NCBI GenBank assembly: GCA_000494145.1
Contig: AWOE01000005.1
Coordinates: 1,582 to 56,686, forward strand
Source: Candidatus Calditenuaceae archaeon JGI OTU-1
Lineage (GTDB): Archaea; Thermoproteota; Nitrososphaeria_A; Caldarchaeales; Calditenuaceae
Direction: 5' to 3'
DNA: 55,105 nucleotides
Part shown: piece after piece, positions 1,847 to 27,544 of the stretch
Layout: the number at the start of each line of letters is the position of its first letter
Numbering within the stretch: position 1 is the stretch's first letter
The notes under the pieces: model-generated
What the model was told of the DNA's origin: nothing
The model's input: the letters and a program-made list of their open reading frames with translations, nothing else
The model's database searches: none
Translations under genes and position numbers: made by a program

Positions 1847-1985
1847 GTAACGGGCGAAGACGTCGGCCGATAGCTCACACCCTATCAGCGTGCCGAGGTG
1901 TGGGACCGCGTTGATGTAAGGCCACGCGCCGCAGACTATCCACTTCGCGAGGGCACCTCACCCCTGACCTTGCTCCTGTCGCCAC

Positions 1986-19683: not shown

Positions 19684-19742
19684 GCGGCTGCTGAAGGTGT
19701 AGAACCCAAATTATATACCGGCTCGTGCATTTCGGTCACGCG

Positions 19743-20900
19743 ATGGGACAAGGCGGCGTCTATGTGCTCGGTGTCGGAGAGATTCCGCCATCGTCTTCTC
19801 TCAGGGACCTCGACTTCAGGGAGATGACATTCGAGGCAGCGGTCCAGGCTTACGCCGACGCGGACATCGATCCCTCCGAGGTCGAGGGGCTCTTCACAGC
19901 GGAGCAGGACTTCGTCGAGGGGATATCGATAGCCGACGAGTACACACCAGATCAGGTGGGGATGAGGTTGAAGTTCAACATGCTCGTCGCCGGCGACTTC
20001 CTCGAGGCCCTCTTCCACGCCTACATGGCCGTCAGGTCCGGGCTTATGGAGGTGGTGGCCGTCGAGTCCCACGCTAGGCCCTCGGAGATCGAGAACTACG
20101 CGGACGTCCTCAGGGCATCCCTCGACCCCCACTGCCTCAGACCGATCCTATCGGATCCGTATGCGATAGCGGGGCTGGACGCCAGAGCCTTCCTCAGCAA
20201 GACGGGGTCCACAACCCACGACCTCTCGCTGGTGGTCGAGAAGAACCTGAGGAACGCCGCGCGATCGGGAGGACCATATGGCGAGGCGCTCTCGGCGGAG
20301 GAAGTCGAGAGGAGCCCCTTCGTCTACGAGCCCCTCAGACGGAGACACGTGGCCCGATTCTCCGATTACGTCGCGGTGGTGGTTCTGGGATCGGAGAGGG
20401 CTGCAAAGGGATCCGACAGGGCGGTGGAGATCGCGTCGATATGGCAGACCGGTGCCACTTCAGGTGCCCACCAGTGGATGAGGAGTTGGGGAGCAATGGA
20501 GTGGGTGAGGGGTGCTTTGGAGAGGGTCGGGCGCGATCTGCATGGCAATCCCGTGAGGTCGTCGGACCTCGTCGAGTTCACCGAGTTCTTCGCACACCAG
20601 GAGCTCCAGTTCCTCTCGGGTTTGCTGGGCTCCGAGGCCGAGGCGCTGCGGATGCTGAGATCGGGCGATCTGGATCTAGGATCGGCGCTGCCCTTCAACC
20701 CCTCAGGCGGGTGCCTGGGCAACGGCAACTCCCTGAACGCCTCGGGCGGAAGGGCCTTCGTCGACGCTGTCAGGCAGCTGAGGGGCGAGGCTGGGAGAGT
20801 GCAGGTGAAGGGCGCGAAGGCCGCCATCGTCGGGTCGCTCCACACGGAGATCTCAGACTCCGGCACGCTGGTATTTCTGAGGACAGGTGATGCGACGTGA
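19743..20900 (+). CDS. thiolase-fold protein, SCP2-thiolase-like, catalytic motifs degenerate (paralog A)
   Basis: About 385 aa. Thiolase-like layout, but VAGDF replaces CxS, TEFF replaces HDCF, and GNGNS replaces GHP. I chose ATG 19743 because the TATA-like TTATATA (19711-19717) lies about 25 nt upstream of it. The ORF-track start is GTG 19725. Confidence 0.7.
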   Translation: MGQGGVYVLGVGEIPPSSSLRDLDFREMTFEAAVQAYADADIDPSEVEGLFTAEQDFVEGISIADEYTPDQVGMRLKFNMLVAGDFLEALFHAYMAVRSGLMEVVAVESHARPSEIENYADVLRASLDPHCLRPILSDPYAIAGLDARAFLSKTGSTTHDLSLVVEKNLRNAARSGGPYGEALSAEEVERSPFVYEPLRRRHVARFSDYVAVVVLGSERAAKGSDRAVEIASIWQTGATSGAHQWMRSWGAMEWVRGALERVGRDLHGNPVRSSDLVEFTEFFAHQELQFLSGLLGSEAEALRMLRSGDLDLGSALPFNPSGGCLGNGNSLNASGGRAFVDAVRQLRGEAGRVQVKGAKAAIVGSLHTEISDSGTLVFLRTGDAT

Positions 20901-22051
20901 GGAGGGTCGCGATAGTGGGTGCCGGCATGACCGACTTCAGGTCGATGCTGCCCCACAGCTCCCCTGAGATGATAAGGGAGGCCGTCAGGAGGTGCCTCGA
21001 CGACGTGGGTTCGCTCTCGATCCGTTACGTGGACGGCGTCCTCTGCGCCTCGGCTCCCGACGCCTTCGACGGATACCACGACAAGGTCTCGATCGCCAAC
21101 GAGGCGGCCTGTGCGATCGGGAAGCCCGTCACGAGGGTCTTCGTGGGAGGGGGAAGCGGGGTCGCGGCTGCCGTCTCGGGATGGTACCACGTCGCCTCCG
21201 GACTCTTCGATACGCTCCTCGTCGTAGCGTGGGAGAAGATGAGCCCTCCGTACCCTCACGCCCAGAAGCTCTTCCAGACGATCTTCGAGCCCGTCGTAGA
21301 GCAGCCGCTCGGGCCGAACCTGATCTGGATATTCGCGCTCGAGATGAGGAGGTACATGGAGGCGCATAACCTGTCGAAGGAGCTCATCGCGGAGGTCGCC
21401 GTGAAGAACAAGGCCAACGCCCTCGACCACCCCCATGCGCAGCTCGGAGCGAGGATCACGGTGGAGGACGTCCTGAAGTCGGAGGTGATGGTCTGGCCGG
21501 TCAACAGGCTGGACATCAGCCCCACATCCGACGGCGCGGTGGCCGTCCTCTTGGCGTCTGAGAACGTGGCGCGGAAGCTCACGGACACACCGGTGTGGAT
21601 CGACGGCGTGGCGACGTGTCTGGACTCGCAGTACTGGACCAACAGGGACCTGGCGTTCCCGTACTACGTCTACCTCGCCGCACAGAAGGCCTACAGGATG
21701 GCGGGGATAACGAACCCGCTTAAGGAGGTCGACGTCTGGGAGCCGTACGACCCGTTCACCTACAAGGAGCTCCACCACCTCGACGGCCTTCTCGGGAAGC
21801 CGGGCTTGGCGCCGAGGTTGCTGAAGGAAGGCCAGCTCCACAGGGACGGGGATCACCCAGCATCGCCCTCCGGTGGTCTTCTCGGCGTAGGGAATCCTAT
21901 CGCCGCTGCAGGGCTGATGAAGGTCGCGGAGCTCTACTGGCAGCTCTCCGAACGGGCGGGGAAGAGGCAGGTGCCCAACGCTTACGTCGGCGTCGCTCAG
22001 GCCTGGGGAGACCTCATGCAGGTCGGGACGGTGGTGGTGTGCAGGAGATGA
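20897..22051 (+). CDS. thiolase-fold protein, SCP2-thiolase-like, catalytic motifs degenerate (paralog B)
   Basis: 384 aa. VAIVGAGMTDF ... PVTRVFVGGGSGVAAAVSGWYHVASG ... WEKM matches the archaeal/SCP2 thiolase scaffold, with Gly at the nucleophile Cys position. YDPF replaces HDCF, and GVGNP replaces GHP. GTGA overlap with paralog A. Confidence 0.75.
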   Translation: MRRVAIVGAGMTDFRSMLPHSSPEMIREAVRRCLDDVGSLSIRYVDGVLCASAPDAFDGYHDKVSIANEAACAIGKPVTRVFVGGGSGVAAAVSGWYHVASGLFDTLLVVAWEKMSPPYPHAQKLFQTIFEPVVEQPLGPNLIWIFALEMRRYMEAHNLSKELIAEVAVKNKANALDHPHAQLGARITVEDVLKSEVMVWPVNRLDISPTSDGAVAVLLASENVARKLTDTPVWIDGVATCLDSQYWTNRDLAFPYYVYLAAQKAYRMAGITNPLKEVDVWEPYDPFTYKELHHLDGLLGKPGLAPRLLKEGQLHRDGDHPASPSGGLLGVGNPIAAAGLMKVAELYWQLSERAGKRQVPNAYVGVAQAWGDLMQVGTVVVCRR

Positions 22052-22698
22052 GCGTGAGGCTAGTTAAGTTCGGTGGCGAGACGCTCGCGGGGCTCGAGGG
22101 CAGGCTGGCTGAGCTCCTCTCGAAAGCTGCAGCCGAGGTCGGCGAGGGGAGGGTAAGCTCGTGGGCTAAGGCCTTGGAGGAGTCGAAGGGGAGGACGGAG
22201 TTCGAGGCGCCGGAGACGCTGGTGGTGACCCCGTACCTCCTCGACTTCAGGTACAGGAGGAGCACGGGGATCGCCCTGACGAGGTTCCTCGAAGGCCTGA
22301 AGGAGGGCAAGTTCTTGGGGACGAGGTGCAGCGGCTGCGGCCGCGTCCTGATACCTCCCAGGACCTTCTGCGAGTGGTGCTTCAGGAGGGTCGACGAGTG
22401 GATCGAGCACAGCGGCGAGGGCGAGGTGGCGACCTACTCCATCGCATACATCGGCACCAACCCGAAGGTGAGGCTCCCGAAGCCCGAGCCGATCGCGGTG
22501 ATCTGGTTCGAGGGGACGAAAGTGGTCAGGCCCAACACCAGGACCGTCGCCCACGCGGCGGGCATACTGCACAGGCTGGGAGAGGTCGAGCCCCAGGAGA
22601 TCATGATAGGGATGAGGGTGAGGCCGGTCTGGAGGCCGGAGGAGGAGAGGGTGGGGAGCATCACCGACGTCCTCTACTTCGCATCGGTCAGGAGGTGA
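22039..22698 (+). CDS. DUF35 protein (Zn-ribbon + OB fold) with ~80-aa N-terminal extension
   Basis: 219 aa. FLEGLKEGKFLGTRCSGCGRVLIPPRTFCEWC (4-Cys ribbon) followed by an OB-fold segment GEGEVATYS ... IGMRV. Alternative starts are ATG 22048 and GTG 22054. Confidence 0.75.
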   Translation: MQEMSVRLVKFGGETLAGLEGRLAELLSKAAAEVGEGRVSSWAKALEESKGRTEFEAPETLVVTPYLLDFRYRRSTGIALTRFLEGLKEGKFLGTRCSGCGRVLIPPRTFCEWCFRRVDEWIEHSGEGEVATYSIAYIGTNPKVRLPKPEPIAVIWFEGTKVVRPNTRTVAHAAGILHRLGEVEPQEIMIGMRVRPVWRPEEERVGSITDVLYFASVRR

Positions 22699-22797
22699 GG
22701 GGAAACGGTCGGCGAGTTCAGGCACTCGATCGAGAACCCCTACGAGTACCCGGCAGGCTTCGCCCTCTCGGTCTTCCTCGAGGGCCTGCGGAAGGGC

Positions 22798-23106
22798 GTG
22801 CTGAAGGGCTCCAGGTGCACCTCTTGCTCGCGGAGCTACATACCGCCCTTCGCTTTCTGCCCGCACTGCGTCGACTCGAAGGTGGAATACGTTGACGTCC
22901 CGGGCGAGGGCAGGGTCGTCACCTGGACGAGGACGAAGGACGGCACGGTCCTCGTGTTCGTGGCCTTTGACGGCCTCGAAGGTGGGATCCTCCACCGTTA
23001 CGTTGCCGGAAGCGATCCGGTTGAGGGCATGAGGGTCAGGCCGAGGTTCAGGGCAGAGCGCGTCGGTTCGATACTCGACATAGAGGGATTCGAGCCTGCA
23101 CGCTAA
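22798..23106 (+). CDS. DUF35 protein, second copy (coordinates run from the first canonical in-frame start; the conserved N-terminal part lies upstream, see findings)
   Basis: 102 aa from GTG 22798. RCTSCSRSYIPPFAFCPHC ribbon plus an OB fold (GEGRVVTWT ... EGMRVRP). The 33 in-frame codons upstream encode the paralogous FALSVFLEGLRKG segment. Confidence 0.65.
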   Translation: MLKGSRCTSCSRSYIPPFAFCPHCVDSKVEYVDVPGEGRVVTWTRTKDGTVLVFVAFDGLEGGILHRYVAGSDPVEGMRVRPRFRAERVGSILDIEGFEPAR

Positions 23107-25134: not shown

Positions 25135-26517
25135 TTAAGCCTTTCTCCTCCTGCTCCGCCCTCTGCCGGTCCTTCGGGCCCTCAGGGCGACCAGTACGAG
25201 CGCACCTACGAGGACTAGGAAGAACAGCAGCTCCACCGACATGAGGAGGAGCTGTTGGATGTCGGGAGCGCTCTGCGCGGGGGATATGTCCGTCGTTGCG
25301 GTGACCGTCAAGGCGGTGGCAGTTCGGATCTCACCGTCACCGACCTCGACCTCGAAGGCCCTGCTTTCGGCGCCGTGTCCCTCCTCGTCCCTCGCGACGA
25401 CCTTCAGGGTCAATCTGCCGCTGAAGGCGCTCAGGTCCACATCGGCCGAGTACCTGTCCCCGGACACACCCCTCATCGGGACGATGATCCTGTTCCCTCT
25501 GCCGTCGTCGACTACCACCTGCGGTTGACCGGGTTCGATGTCCCTGTCCGCATCGACAACCACCGCCTCGACCCTGACGGTCGATCTACCAGCAACCGAG
25601 AATTTCGCCTCCCTTATCTCCGGCACGAACGTCAAATCGTAGAGCAGGAGCTTCGATGCCGATGGGTCGAGCATGAAAAGCTTCGACGGAGCTGGTGATG
25701 TAATGAGGGTTGCGAACTCCTCCACGACCCGATATTCAACCAAGTCCTCGCCGATGATCCCGACGACCTTAGAGATCTCATCGACGAAAACCACCCTTCC
25801 AGCCTTAGCAGGAAACAGTCTGGTCAGCTCGGAGACCGAATATGGCAGTTTGAGGTCCTTCAGTGAGCCGTCAGCTCGAACGATTCCGATGTAGCCCCTA
25901 GATGAGATGGCAGCCCTGTCCTCAGAAATCGCTAGAACTGATGTTATCTTGTCGTCGTGTTTGTAAACCATTTTGTTCTCGCCGCTCTCTATGTCAAGGA
26001 CGTTCAGCGTTTTCAGGTCGTCCCCGACGTACCAGAAGGACTTGCCGAAAGCGCTTCCCGACCAGGGGGAACCTGCGTACCCGGTCCGAAAAGATCTGAC
26101 GACCTCGTTCTCCGGCCCTATGACTATGATCCTCTGTCCGTCGTGGACGACGAACCCGTCCTCGTAGGCCCATGCGGCCTCGACCCGCATCTCGAATTCG
26201 TTCAGAACCTTCCGCGACACCAGGTCTATCACAACAGCCCTCCGCTGGATCCTCGAGTAGGCGAGGCACCGGTAGCCGGACACGACAACGTCTTCAGGCT
26301 GGAAGCCGAGTTCGATCCTCCAGAGGGATCCTGTCCCGATCTCGTACATGGTCACGGAACGCTCGGCGGGCAAAGCGAGAATCAACGCGTCCGTTCCCGG
26401 CGACGAGATCGACGAAGGGTATGTCCCGAGAGGCGGGTAAGCGAGCTGCTGGGGGTAGATGATTATCGTGGACAGCACCATTAACATCGCCAACGTCGCA
26501 TGGCTCACCATATGCAT
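25135..26517 (-). CDS. hypothetical surface protein (signal/anchor helix, beta-rich ectodomain, Ig-like module, C-terminal TM + Arg-rich tail)
   Basis: 461 aa from ATG 26517 (MHMVSHATLAMLMVLSTIIIY). C-terminal LLLMSVELLFFLVLVGALVLVALRARRTGRGRSRRRKA. No recognisable catalytic motif. The first 47 codons of the ORF-track form look non-coding. Confidence 0.55.
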   Translation of the reverse strand: MHMVSHATLAMLMVLSTIIIYPQQLAYPPLGTYPSSISSPGTDALILALPAERSVTMYEIGTGSLWRIELGFQPEDVVVSGYRCLAYSRIQRRAVVIDLVSRKVLNEFEMRVEAAWAYEDGFVVHDGQRIIVIGPENEVVRSFRTGYAGSPWSGSAFGKSFWYVGDDLKTLNVLDIESGENKMVYKHDDKITSVLAISEDRAAISSRGYIGIVRADGSLKDLKLPYSVSELTRLFPAKAGRVVFVDEISKVVGIIGEDLVEYRVVEEFATLITSPAPSKLFMLDPSASKLLLYDLTFVPEIREAKFSVAGRSTVRVEAVVVDADRDIEPGQPQVVVDDGRGNRIIVPMRGVSGDRYSADVDLSAFSGRLTLKVVARDEEGHGAESRAFEVEVGDGEIRTATALTVTATTDISPAQSAPDIQQLLLMSVELLFFLVLVGALVLVALRARRTGRGRSRRRKA

Positions 26518-26598
26518 CCTGAAGACGTATCGCACCAGAGTGAATGATAAGCGTGTTCTGCTTGCTTCTCCAGAATCGGCGTAGATACAAATACACCT

Positions 26599-27120
26599 GT
26601 GCCGACCTTTACACCTGGTTTGTCGTCCGGAAACAATCTCCGGGTCACCGTCAGGCACGGTGATTTGGAGCTGACTTTTGAGGGCGATGTGGCATCGGTC
26701 ATCAGGTCATTTCATGAGTTCGTTGAGAGGGTCGTGCCGGCATACTCACTGGCTAAGAGCCTTCTCGCCAATGTGACCCTCCATGGGCTGCTGAATTCTG
26801 TAAAGGATTACATAGTATACGACGACTCGCTGGGGTTTGTCTTCAAGCCGACTGCTCATGGTCTCCCAGCACCCGATCAGGTCCTGCTGTTTTTGGCGCT
26901 GAGGAAGGCGGAGCACCTCATGGGGAAGAGGAGCTCGAGCCTGACGAATCTGAGGGAGCTCTCCGAGGGTCTGGGGCTGAAGAGGGGCACGCTGACAGGG
27001 GCTTTAAGCGAGCTGAGGAAGGCCGGGCTCGTCAGACGGCTCGAGAGGGGGGATTACGAGGTCACTCAGATGGGGCTCCAGTACCTCGTTGAGCGGTTCT
27101 CTCCTCGGCAGTCAGGGTGA
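26599..27120 (+). CDS. hypothetical protein, N-terminal beta-hairpin/helix module + C-terminal winged HTH (paralog 1)
   Basis: 173 aa. LRVTVRHGDLELTFEGDVASVIRSFHEFVERV, then the wHTH LRELSEGLGLKRGTLTGALSELRKAGLVRRLERGDYEVT. The start is more likely TTG 26620, about 26 nt downstream of the TATA-like GATACAAATA (26584-26593). Confidence 0.55.
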   Translation: MPTFTPGLSSGNNLRVTVRHGDLELTFEGDVASVIRSFHEFVERVVPAYSLAKSLLANVTLHGLLNSVKDYIVYDDSLGFVFKPTAHGLPAPDQVLLFLALRKAEHLMGKRSSSLTNLRELSEGLGLKRGTLTGALSELRKAGLVRRLERGDYEVTQMGLQYLVERFSPRQSG

Positions 27121-27544
27121 TTCCCTCGGGGAACTGTTTGGCCAGCTCGCCCACCGACCCGCGTCTCCTCTCGACGTACTGGTACCTCCTCGGAGAGCCC
27201 TCTCGGTCTAGGACCTCCTCCCGCACCAACTCCAGCAGGACGTGGGCGACGGCCGTCACGTCGAAGCTGTAGCCGCGCCTCTTCACCTCTTGGTATACCT
27301 CCGAAAGGGACTTGGGTTCCCTGAAGAAACCCTCTGAGACTAAGCGCTCGACGACCTGCCTGCAGGTGAGCTGCCTCTTCGCCTCTTGGACGGGCCTCTC
27401 CTCCTTCTCCCTCCCCTCAGCCAGCGCGGAAATCACCCTCCTGACGCTCTCCTCCAGCTGATCGACCGGTGCCTCTATCTCGACTTCGACGCCGCCGACG
27501 TTCAGCCTGACCTTGACCCTATTTGGTGAATTATCCTGATTCAT
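27062..27544 (-). CDS. hypothetical protein, N-terminal beta-hairpin/helix module + C-terminal winged HTH (paralog 2)
   Basis: 160 aa from ATG 27544 (MNQDNSPNRVKVRLNVGGVEVEIEAPVDQLEESVRRVISAL), then a wHTH-like region VVERLVSEGFFREPKSLSEVYQEVKRRGYSFDVTAVAHVLLELVREEVLDRE. The AT-rich box lies about 19-21 nt upstream of the ATG. Confidence 0.55.
   Translation of the reverse strand: MNQDNSPNRVKVRLNVGGVEVEIEAPVDQLEESVRRVISALAEGREKEERPVQEAKRQLTCRQVVERLVSEGFFREPKSLSEVYQEVKRRGYSFDVTAVAHVLLELVREEVLDREGSPRRYQYVERRRGSVGELAKQFPEGITLTAEERTAQRGTGAPSE

What the first reader, a model, noticed from the sequence alone, without database searches (positions are those of the whole stretch)
22690..22800. Two DUF35 modules in one frame separated only by TGA; the second lacks a start for its conserved N-terminus
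DUF35-1 ends ...FASVRR-TGA (22696-22698). The same frame then continues without any stop as GETVGEFRHSIENPYEYPAGFALSVFLEGLRKGVLKGSRCTSCSRSYIPPFAFCPHC... The segment GFALSVFLEGLRKGVLKGSRC is clearly paralogous to GIALTRFLEGLKEGKFLGTRC of DUF35-1, so it is almost certainly translated. Yet the 33 codons 22699-22797 contain no ATG, GTG or TTG. The junction AGGAGGTGAGGGG has the GTGA stop/start overlap used at nine other junctions in this window, counting ATGA. Here the GTG (22695-22697) is 1 nt out of the conserved frame, and dropping one G of the G4 run 22699-22702 gives MRETVGEFRHS... Alternatives are TGA readthrough giving a ~355-aa tandem DUF35 protein, or initiation at in-frame ACG 22705.
Basis: partly seen in the sequence, partly recalled or inferred. 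Interest (0 to 1): 0.6.

Follow-up and report, generated by a model that had tools for sequence, protein, structure and literature searches.

The report
Start codon mutated to ACG
The second of two neighbouring DUF35 scaffold-protein genes in this hot-spring archaeon lacks a normal start because its ATG has mutated to ACG in this one strain, so this is an ordinary start-codon variant and not a sequencing frameshift or a designed stop-codon read-through.

Summary
DUF35-1 ends at TGA 22696-22698. The conserved body of DUF35-2 follows in the same frame, and there is no ATG, GTG or TTG before 22798.

The leading interpretations are not supported. Fifteen contigs of the same species (19-39 mismatches over 1.9-3.7 kb and no gaps in the eleven aligned in full) have the same junction length and frame. 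They read TGA-GGGGGA-ATG where the window reads TGA-GGGGAA-ACG. So there is no indel in the G-run. The ancestral start at 22705-22707 has changed from ATG to ACG by a T-to-C change at 22706.

All 18 related species searched keep ATG, GTG or TTG at that codon. There the gene lies in a different frame from DUF35-1, so the shared frame here is a by-product of a 6-nt spacer.

The ACG form is identical in a second NCBI assembly and in an independent Logan contig.

A perfect 8-nt Shine-Dalgarno sequence still ends 6 nt before the ACG. The most likely outcome is weak ACG initiation, giving a reduced-function allele that may be decaying. On this strain's branch the two DUF35 genes carry 5 nonsynonymous and 0 synonymous changes. 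Interest is low.

The parts
19725..20900 (+). Thiolase-like gene A, first gene of the four-gene module. Public gene calls start it at 19743.
   Evidence: Pfam Thiolase_C_1, E = 1.5e-15. Gene calls.
20897..22051 (+). Thiolase-like gene B. It has a GTGA overlap with gene A and an ATGA overlap with DUF35-1.
   Evidence: Pfam Thiolase_N plus Thiolase_C_1. ORF list.
22048..22698 (+). DUF35-1, 216 aa, with stop TGA at 22696-22698.
   Evidence: Pfam zf-ChsH2 39.2 bits and OB_ChsH2_C 41.5 bits, both above cut-off. Orthologues in relatives end at the same position with TGA, TAG or TAA.
22691..22698 (+). Shine-Dalgarno sequence GGAGGTGA serving DUF35-2. Its last three bases are the DUF35-1 stop codon.
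   Evidence: Perfect 8-nt complement to the 16S rRNA 3' end ...GGATCACCTCC found on contig C13 of this genome. It ends 6 nt before 22705.
22699..22704 (+). The 6-nt spacer GGGGAA. Conspecifics read GGGGGA. Position 22703 is a strain-specific G-to-A change.
   Evidence: Junction alignments and the difference table.
22705..22707 (+). ACG at the ancestral start codon of DUF35-2, caused by a T-to-C change at 22706.
   Evidence: ATG at this codon in 15 conspecific contigs. ATG, GTG or TTG in 18 related species and in other Calditenuis metagenome contigs.
22705..23106 (+). DUF35-2 reading frame: 133 codons plus stop, intact.
   Evidence: Translation. Called as a 133-aa gene in conspecifics. Pfam zf-ChsH2 35.7 bits; OB_ChsH2_C 20.7 bits, below its cut-off. 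Aligns to 3IRB over residues 12-96.
22798..22800 (+). First canonical in-frame start (GTG). Public annotation uses it and calls a truncated 102-aa product.
   Evidence: This product would begin at residue 32 and lack the helix segment conserved with 3IRB.
22695..22697 (+). GTG that overlaps the stop codon but is out of frame. It is not the start of DUF35-2.
   Evidence: Its frame gives an unrelated 67-residue product. It is also out of frame in conspecifics, which use the downstream ATG.
22684..22684 (+). Strain-specific C-to-T change giving P213S in DUF35-1, at a proline invariant in all relatives aligned.
   Evidence: and the junction translations.

Best explanation
DUF35-1 and DUF35-2 are two separate, translationally coupled genes of a conserved module of two thiolase-like genes and two DUF35 genes, in a Candidatus Calditenuis archaeon (order Caldarchaeales).

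Shown:
- In this species the spacer between the DUF35-1 stop and the DUF35-2 start is 6 nt. That happens to put both genes in one frame.
- In this strain the DUF35-2 start codon has changed from ATG to ACG (T to C at 22706).
- There is no indel and no conserved read-through signal.

Inferred:
- The perfect Shine-Dalgarno sequence GGAGGTGA still ends 6 nt upstream, and the DUF35-1 stop lies within the distance at which terminating ribosomes can reinitiate.
- DUF35-2 is therefore probably still made from the ACG, starting with Met, at a small fraction of the normal level.
- This would be a reduced-function allele, and it may be on the way to loss.
For: Junction comparison
- Eleven conspecific contigs from at least ten different samples align to the window without gaps, with 19-39 mismatches over 1.9-3.7 kb. 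All read GTGAGGGGGAATGGTC where the window reads GTGAGGGGAAACGGTC.
- Four further records with the same DUF35-1 protein call the same 133-aa gene 6 nt after the stop.
- Eighteen species of the order have ATG (15), GTG (1) or TTG (2) at the homologous codon. None has the two genes in frame.

Is the ACG real?
- The ACG haplotype is identical over 6,651 bp in NCBI contig ASPD01000004.1, which has a different length from the window's contig.
- It is also identical in a 1,249-bp Logan contig of run SRR3951781. That contig carries all ten window-specific alleles in its span.

Can ACG start translation here?
- The Shine-Dalgarno sequence is a perfect match to this genome's own 16S 3' end.
- A 6-nt gap lies inside the -8 to +10 nt range that Huber et al. 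took as predictive of termination-reinitiation, based on Haloferax volcanii and E. coli experiments (PMC10666635).
- ACG starts translation in E. coli at roughly 0.1-1% of AUG, mostly with an N-terminal Met (bioRxiv 10.1101/063800).
- In this window and in three relatives the MetRS gene also lacks any canonical start. It has CTC or CTA 6 nt after a GGGTGA motif, the same geometry.
- The 133-codon frame is intact.
Against: - Neither the C at 22706 nor any translation from it is directly verified.
- ACG is a very poor start codon where it has been measured.
- Archaeal aIF1 discriminates against the non-AUG codon tested, AUU, in Sulfolobus (PMC4705826).
- No relative uses ACG here, so selection has not kept it.
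- On this strain's branch the two DUF35 genes carry 5 nonsynonymous and 0 synonymous changes, against 27 and 52 in 19 neighbouring genes (Fisher p = 0.0065, a post hoc test). One is P213S at a proline invariant in all relatives. This fits decay of the pair as well as, or better than, a still-functional allele.
- Whether the three assemblies carrying ACG come from independent cells is not known.
Confidence: 0.5

Rival explanations
1. The start was lost and the allele is null. ATG to ACG abolishes DUF35-2 synthesis in practice, and the gene, perhaps together with its partner DUF35-1, is a young pseudogene that has not yet picked up stops or frameshifts.
For: - ACG is the only non-canonical codon at this position among about 35 sequences examined.
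- No compensating start was created nearby.
- Derived nonsynonymous changes hit conserved residues: P213S, R186M and T28A in DUF35-1 and G103S in DUF35-2. There are no derived synonymous changes. The counts are 5:0 against a background of 27:52.
- No second copy of DUF35-2 was found in this 66.6%-complete genome.
Against: - The frame is intact and the Shine-Dalgarno sequence is preserved.
- Thiolase-like gene B, which should depend on the DUF35 partners, still looks constrained (1 nonsynonymous to 5 synonymous on this branch).
- The statistical signal is post hoc and rests on five sites.
- The lineage appears to start MetRS on a non-canonical codon with the same spacing.
Confidence: 0.3
2. TGA read-through produces a tandem DUF35-1/DUF35-2 fusion of about 351 aa, and this supplies the second module.
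For: - The two frames are continuous apart from the TGA.
- Natural fused tandem DUF35 proteins of 290-345 aa exist in Actinomycetota and align over 82-84% of the hypothetical fusion. They contain two OB_ChsH2_C stretches.
- One such gene sits directly upstream of two thiolase-like genes, so it belongs to the same four-module system.
Against: - The shared frame is confined to this species. All 18 related species have the genes in different frames, each with its own start.
- Conspecifics with the same frame keep their own ATG.
- The stop position is conserved with all three stop codons.
- No fused form appears among the archaeal homologues, which are all about 215 aa.
- No read-through signal was identified.
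Confidence: 0.05
3. The C at 22706 is an amplification, sequencing or assembly error, and the organism really has ATG.
For: The genome is fragmentary: 128 contigs, 66.6% complete, with Ns inside contigs. Reads could not be inspected.
Against: - The identical sequence occurs in a second NCBI assembly with different contig boundaries and in an independently assembled Logan contig.
- The site lies within a haplotype of many other differences from the ATG-bearing contigs. In neighbouring genes these are mostly synonymous, so they are real divergence.
- At about 1% divergence a true substitution is far more likely a priori than a consensus error at one given base.
Confidence: 0.05
4. Translation begins at GTG 22798, as publicly annotated, and gives a functional 102-aa DUF35-2 without its N-terminus.
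For: It is the first canonical in-frame start, and gene callers choose it. The four zinc-binding cysteines and the OB fold would be retained.
Against: - No well-spaced Shine-Dalgarno sequence precedes it. GGAAGGG ends only 1 nt before the GTG.
- The 31 missing residues are conserved across the genus and align to the helices before the zinc ribbon in 3IRB. That paper suggests these helices act in protein-protein contacts.
- No relative starts there.
Confidence: 0.05
5. A programmed +1 frameshift, or an extra G in the G-run, joins GTG 22695 to the DUF35-2 frame.
For: GTG 22695 overlaps the stop in the usual GTGA manner. Removing one base would put it in frame.
Against: - Conspecifics have the same total length and an in-frame ATG downstream, and the GTG is out of frame there too.
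- The window aligns to them without gaps over 1.9-3.7 kb.
- In relatives where a GTGA overlap is in frame, the homologous ATG or GTG further downstream is still present.
Confidence: 0.02

Closest known systems
Archaeal thiolase/DUF35 scaffold complexes: the thiolase/HMG-CoA synthase/DUF35 complex (PDB 6ESQ, 6ET9) and the Sulfolobus acidocaldarius ketothiolase/DUF35 fatty-acid synthase complex (bioRxiv 10.1101/2024.07.05.601840)
   Same: Small proteins with a zinc ribbon and an OB fold, encoded next to thiolase-fold genes and coupled to them. Both window proteins match 3IRB and 6ESQ chain E by sequence.
   Different: Here two thiolase-like genes are paired with two different DUF35 genes. DUF35-1 has an extra N-terminal extension of about 65 residues. 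No HMG-CoA synthase gene is in the module. No biochemistry exists for this module.
Actinobacterial fused tandem DUF35 proteins next to two thiolase-like genes, for example the Nonomuraea protein P0056 in locus L113
   Same: The same four modules, two DUF35 and two thiolase-like, lie beside acyl-CoA synthetase, enoyl-CoA hydratase and acyl-CoA dehydrogenase genes. The fused protein is colinear with DUF35-1 followed by DUF35-2.
   Different: The two DUF35 modules form one polypeptide there. In Caldarchaeales they are always two genes. Identity is only about 30%.
Near-cognate (non-AUG/GUG/UUG) start codons, for example ACG measured in E. coli (10.1101/063800). From my own knowledge: AUU of bacterial infC, and ACG starts in some eukaryotic and viral mRNAs.
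   Same: A one-base variant of AUG sits at a proper distance from a ribosome-binding site and could be read by initiator tRNA at low efficiency.
   Different: Known functional cases are conserved among relatives. This ACG is confined to one strain and is derived from ATG.
MetRS of the same order, which lacks a canonical start (earlier scan note e1-3399267)
   Same: A GGGTGA or GGTGA motif, then 6 nt, then a non-canonical codon, followed at once by conserved coding sequence. Seen in the window and in G001, G003 and G021.
   Different: The MetRS codon (CTC or CTA) is conserved across families, so it looks selected. The DUF35-2 ACG is a recent change in one strain.

Membership tests
DUF35 (zinc ribbon plus OB fold; Pfam PF12172 and PF01796) | Rubredoxin-like zinc ribbon with four cysteines (PF12172 above its gathering score) | tested here: met
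   DUF35-1 scores 39.2 bits and DUF35-2 35.7 bits against a cut-off of 23.2. CxxC...CxxC is present in both.
DUF35 (zinc ribbon plus OB fold; Pfam PF12172 and PF01796) | C-terminal OB-fold domain (PF01796 above its gathering score) | tested here: inconclusive
   DUF35-1 scores 41.5 bits, above the 27.1 cut-off. DUF35-2 scores only 20.7 bits, below it. DUF35-2 does align to 3IRB through residue 96 and to DUF35-1.
DUF35 (zinc ribbon plus OB fold; Pfam PF12172 and PF01796) | Genomic pairing with a thiolase-fold gene | tested here: met
   Two thiolase-like genes lie directly upstream with 4-nt overlaps. The arrangement is conserved in 18 related species.
Programmed stop-codon read-through | In-frame arrangement of the two reading frames conserved among relatives | tested here: not met
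   It is in frame only in this species. All 18 other species have the genes in different frames.
Programmed stop-codon read-through | Downstream frame lacks its own start in relatives | tested here: not met
   Every relative and every conspecific has ATG, GTG or TTG.
Programmed stop-codon read-through | Junction-spanning protein product | not testable with these tools
Programmed ribosomal frameshift or indel error at the G-run | Length difference from relatives at the slippery or homopolymer site | tested here: not met
   Gap-free alignments to 11 conspecific contigs. The junction has the same length, 30 nt between TTCGCA and GAGTTC.
Conserved non-canonical start codon (regulatory type, such as infC AUU) | Non-canonical codon conserved in orthologues | tested here: not met
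   ACG occurs only in this strain's haplotype.
Conserved non-canonical start codon (regulatory type, such as infC AUU) | Ribosome-binding site at functional spacing | tested here: met
   GGAGGTGA is a perfect match to the genome's own anti-Shine-Dalgarno sequence and ends 6 nt before the ACG.
Conserved non-canonical start codon (regulatory type, such as infC AUU) | N-terminal peptide or ribosome footprint at the codon | not testable with these tools
   No expression data could be reached.
Pseudogene by start-codon loss | Ancestral start codon replaced by a non-start codon | tested here: met
   ATG to ACG, polarised by conspecifics and outgroups.
Pseudogene by start-codon loss | Further disabling mutations or relaxed constraint | tested here: inconclusive
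   There are no stops or frameshifts. The DUF35 pair has 5 nonsynonymous and 0 synonymous changes on this branch, against 27 and 52 in neighbours (p = 0.0065, post hoc, five sites).

The most novel reading that the evidence does not exclude
ACG works as a real, if weak, start codon in this archaeon. The geometry is a strong Shine-Dalgarno sequence, a 6-nt spacer and then a non-canonical codon. That matches the MetRS gene of the order, which has CTC or CTA and no canonical start. Caldarchaeales ribosomes may therefore initiate on non-canonical codons whenever they sit at this distance. The ATG and ACG alleles of DUF35-2 would then be a natural matched pair for measuring that ability.
Probability: 0.35. 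Interest if true: 0.5.

Novelty: new member of a known kind. Interest (0 to 1): 0.2.

Why it matters
- It corrects the reading of this locus. The two DUF35 genes are separate. The puzzling shared frame is incidental. The missing start is a single-base change, and the public annotation of a 102-aa truncated protein is probably wrong about the N-terminus.
- It gives a naturally occurring pair of alleles, ATG and ACG, behind an identical ribosome-binding site in an uncultured thermophilic archaeon. This could be used to ask how strict start-codon choice is in this lineage, where MetRS also seems to lack a canonical start.
- It shows that the module of two thiolase-like and two DUF35 genes is conserved across Caldarchaeales, and that Actinomycetota have a counterpart with the two DUF35 modules fused.

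Beyond that it is an ordinary strain-level variant.

Tried and rejected
- **Extra G in the G-run, or a +1 shift from GTG 22695.** Rejected. Conspecific contigs have the same length and frame, with an in-frame ATG.
- **The 362-aa open frame reported for G001 as a natural fusion.** Rejected. It is only a long open stretch of the -1 frame overlapping DUF35-1 in a GC-rich genome. DUF35-1 there ends at TGA and DUF35-2 has its own ATG.
- **Raw-read check.** I substituted independent public assemblies found by exact protein look-up.
- **Genome-wide scan for non-canonical starts placed after a Shine-Dalgarno sequence.** Too noisy, because this 61% GC genome has many long spurious open frames. I drew no conclusion from it.
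- **Per-gene comparison with L103 using L102's coordinates.** The coordinates were out of register for several genes, so I discarded it and used only L102.
- **A second DUF35-2 copy elsewhere in the genome.** None found, but the genome is only 66.6% complete.
- **TGA read as a sense codon or selenocysteine.** Not pursued. Orthologues end at the same position with TGA, TAG or TAA, so it is a true stop.
- **C-to-U editing of the mRNA restoring AUG, as in plant organelles (own knowledge).** Nothing supports it in archaeal mRNAs, and it cannot be tested here.
Full report
**What is in the sequence**

The window lies on contig C5 of a fragmentary genome: 1.18 Mb, 128 contigs, 66.6% complete, 61% G+C. 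Its closest named relatives are Candidatus Calditenuis MAGs of the order Caldarchaeales.

- DUF35-1 runs from 22048 to 22698 and ends ...FASVRR-TGA.
- The same frame continues without a stop through GETVGEFRHSIENPYEYPAGFALSVFLEGLRKGVLKGSRC... to 23106.
- The first ATG, GTG or TTG in that frame is GTG 22798.
- GTG 22695-22697 overlaps the stop but is one base out of frame and gives an unrelated product.
- Both modules hit the DUF35 zinc-ribbon model. DUF35-1 also passes the OB-fold model. DUF35-2 falls just below that cut-off, but it matches DUF35-1 at E = 3.4e-13 and the solved DUF35 protein 3IRB from residue 12 onward.

**Related species**

I searched 40 related genomes with DUF35-2. The tandem DUF35-1/DUF35-2 arrangement, downstream of two thiolase-like genes, is present in 18 species from four genera of two families. 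I read every junction.

- In all 18, DUF35-2 is a separate gene with its own start: ATG in 15, GTG in 1 and TTG in 2.
- That start lies 10-14 codons upstream of the conserved YEYPAG motif.
- In all 18, DUF35-2 is in a different frame from DUF35-1. The junction is a 4-nt overlap or a spacer of 1, 2 or 5 nt.
- The DUF35-1 stop falls at the same position and uses TGA, TAG or TAA.

Neither a fusion nor read-through is a feature of the family.

The 362-aa open frame listed for G001 is only a long open stretch of the -1 frame. DUF35-1 there ends at TGA and DUF35-2 has its own ATG.

**The same species**

This comparison is the decisive one. A metagenome scan and exact-protein look-ups returned conspecific contigs from many samples: JGI, ENA and Logan records and one further NCBI assembly.

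Eleven of them align to the window without any gap, with 19-39 mismatches over 1.9-3.7 kb. All eleven read:

- conspecifics: ...AGGAGGTGA GGGGGA ATG GTC GGC GAG TTC...
- window: ...AGGAGGTGA GGGGAA ACG GTC GGC GAG TTC...

Length and frame are identical. Two junction differences lie after the stop: G to A at 22703 in the spacer, and T to C at 22706, which turns the start ATG into ACG.

Gene callers annotate a 133-aa gene beginning 6 nt after the DUF35-1 stop in these contigs, and in four further records with the same DUF35-1 protein.

A somewhat more distant contig, at 91.7% identity, reads TGA-GGGGA-ATG with a 5-nt spacer.

The history is therefore simple:

1. One G was added to the spacer in the ancestor of this species. 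This put the two genes in one frame by accident.
2. The start codon later mutated in the strain sampled here.

Its last-listed alternative, ACG 22705, marks exactly the ancestral start.

**Is the ACG real?**

Three lines of indirect evidence favour a real allele.

- The haplotype is 100% identical over 6,651 bp in NCBI contig ASPD01000004.1. That contig is 70,413 bp long and the window's contig is 56,686 bp, so they are different assemblies.
- It is also identical in a 1,249-bp Logan contig of run SRR3951781. That contig carries all ten window-specific alleles within its span.
- The look-up counted four or five contigs on which the gene is called as the truncated 102-aa form.

The strain differs from the others at about 1% of sites. 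In neighbouring genes these differences are mostly synonymous, which is the signature of true divergence and not of error. I put an error at about 5%. I could not establish whether the assemblies come from independent cells.

**What happens to DUF35-2 in this strain**

The ribosome-binding site is untouched.

- GGAGGTGA (22691-22698) is a perfect 8-nt complement to this genome's own 16S 3' end...GGATCACCTCC. It ends 6 nt before the ACG.
- The DUF35-1 stop lies inside that motif, so the intergenic distance is 6 nt.
- Huber et al. measured reinitiation in H. volcanii and E. coli. They took -8 to +10 nt as predictive of coupling, and gene pairs at such distances are enriched for subunits of heteromeric complexes (PMC10666635).
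- In E. coli, ACG starts translation at roughly 0.1-1% of AUG, mainly with an N-terminal Met (10.1101/063800).
- Archaeal aIF1 was shown to discriminate against AUU in Sulfolobus (PMC4705826). No ACG measurement in archaea turned up in the papers I read.

I checked this. The window, G003 and G001 read TGA-xxx-GCC-CTC-GCG-AAG-TGG, and G021 reads TGA-GCT-AAG-CTA-CAG-AAG-TGG. In each case the codon comes 6 nt after GGGTGA, and the conserved KW...PHLG core follows directly. The lineage therefore seems able to start an essential protein on a non-canonical codon with the same spacing. That makes weak ACG initiation plausible here.

**Evidence pointing the other way**

Using G003 as outgroup, I polarised all single-base differences between the window and a conspecific contig across 21 genes.

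| Branch leading to the window | Nonsynonymous | Synonymous |
|---|---|---|
| Two DUF35 genes | 5 | 0 |
| Other 19 genes | 27 | 52 |

Fisher's exact test gives p = 0.0065. The unpolarised counts give p = 0.004. The derived changes include:

- P213S in DUF35-1, at a proline invariant in every relative aligned;
- R186M and T28A in DUF35-1;
- G103S in DUF35-2.

Three of the strain's substitutions (22684, 22703, 22706) fall within 23 nt. This suggests relaxed constraint on the DUF35 pair, as expected if loss of the start crippled it. But the test is post hoc, rests on five sites, and thiolase-like gene B still looks constrained (1 nonsynonymous to 5 synonymous).

I therefore treat the allele as reduced-function to null. 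Weak ACG initiation is the most likely source of any product (about 0.5). An effectively dead gene is the main rival (about 0.3).

**Minor rivals**

- **Start at GTG 22798.** The product would lack 31 conserved residues that align to the helices preceding the zinc ribbon in 3IRB. That paper suggests these helices act in protein-protein contacts. The GTG also has no well-spaced Shine-Dalgarno sequence.
- **Read-through of the TGA.** It would give a 351-aa fusion. This is not absurd structurally. Fused tandem DUF35 proteins of 290-345 aa exist in Actinomycetota and align over 82-84% of the hypothetical fusion. They contain two OB-fold stretches. In Nonomuraea such a gene sits directly upstream of two thiolase-like genes, beside acyl-CoA synthetase, hydratase and dehydrogenase genes. 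But nothing in the archaeal lineage conserves the shared frame, conspecifics keep their own ATG, and all close archaeal homologues are about 215 aa. I give read-through about 5%.

**Comparison with what is known, and verdict**

The proteins belong to the DUF35 family of zinc-ribbon/OB-fold partners of thiolase-fold enzymes. In the two archaeal complexes studied so far, a DUF35 protein holds a thiolase together with the next enzymes of the pathway (10.1101/2024.07.05.601840).

The module here has two thiolase-like and two DUF35 genes. It is conserved in Caldarchaeales and has an actinobacterial counterpart with fused DUF35 modules. Its chemistry is unknown, and I did not test it.

The shared frame is an accident of a 6-nt spacer. 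Its only wider interest is as a natural ATG/ACG pair for testing start-codon stringency in a lineage that already shows one conserved non-canonical start.

Noticed in passing
window 1949-1960, minus strand (MetRS 5' end); L108, L109, L110: The MetRS gene has no ATG, GTG or TTG between an in-frame TGA and the conserved KW...PHLG core. CTC follows a GGGTGA motif by 6 nt in the window, G001 and G003; G021 has CTA there. This agrees with an earlier scan note.
   Followed up: partly
window 22048-23106: On this strain's branch the two DUF35 genes carry 5 nonsynonymous and 0 synonymous changes, against 27 and 52 in 19 neighbouring genes (p = 0.0065, post hoc). One is P213S (22684) at a proline invariant in all relatives.
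   Followed up: yes
L113 5001-8077 (Nonomuraea, JBEXMT010000014.1): A 293-aa protein with two fused DUF35 modules lies directly upstream of two thiolase-like genes, beside AMP-binding, enoyl-CoA hydratase and acyl-CoA dehydrogenase genes. This is the bacterial counterpart of the archaeal four-gene module.
   Followed up: partly
proteins P0057, P0065, P0066, P0080 and others: Single polypeptides of 504-597 aa that combine DUF35 domains with a full thiolase (Thiolase_N plus Thiolase_C_1) exist in metagenomes.
   Followed up: no
window 26665-27544: The two convergent small winged-helix genes show no differences at all from conspecific contig L102 over 939 nt, although flanking genes differ at about 1%. 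This may reflect a recent sweep or exchange of that segment.
   Followed up: no
window 25135-26658, minus strand: The putative surface-protein gene downstream is called at different lengths in conspecific contigs (416, 457 and 458 aa; 507 aa as the longest ORF here). It has the most nonsynonymous differences in the region (11).
   Followed up: no
window 12273-32501: Across 19 genes the branch leading to this genome has a higher nonsynonymous to synonymous ratio (27:52) than the conspecific branch (14:48). This would fit a single-cell or tip lineage carrying mildly deleterious variants.
   Followed up: no
window 22798-23106: Public gene calls for this haplotype annotate DUF35-2 as a 102-aa protein starting at GTG 22798. 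Conspecific records aa. The 102-aa call cuts off the conserved N-terminus.
   Followed up: yes
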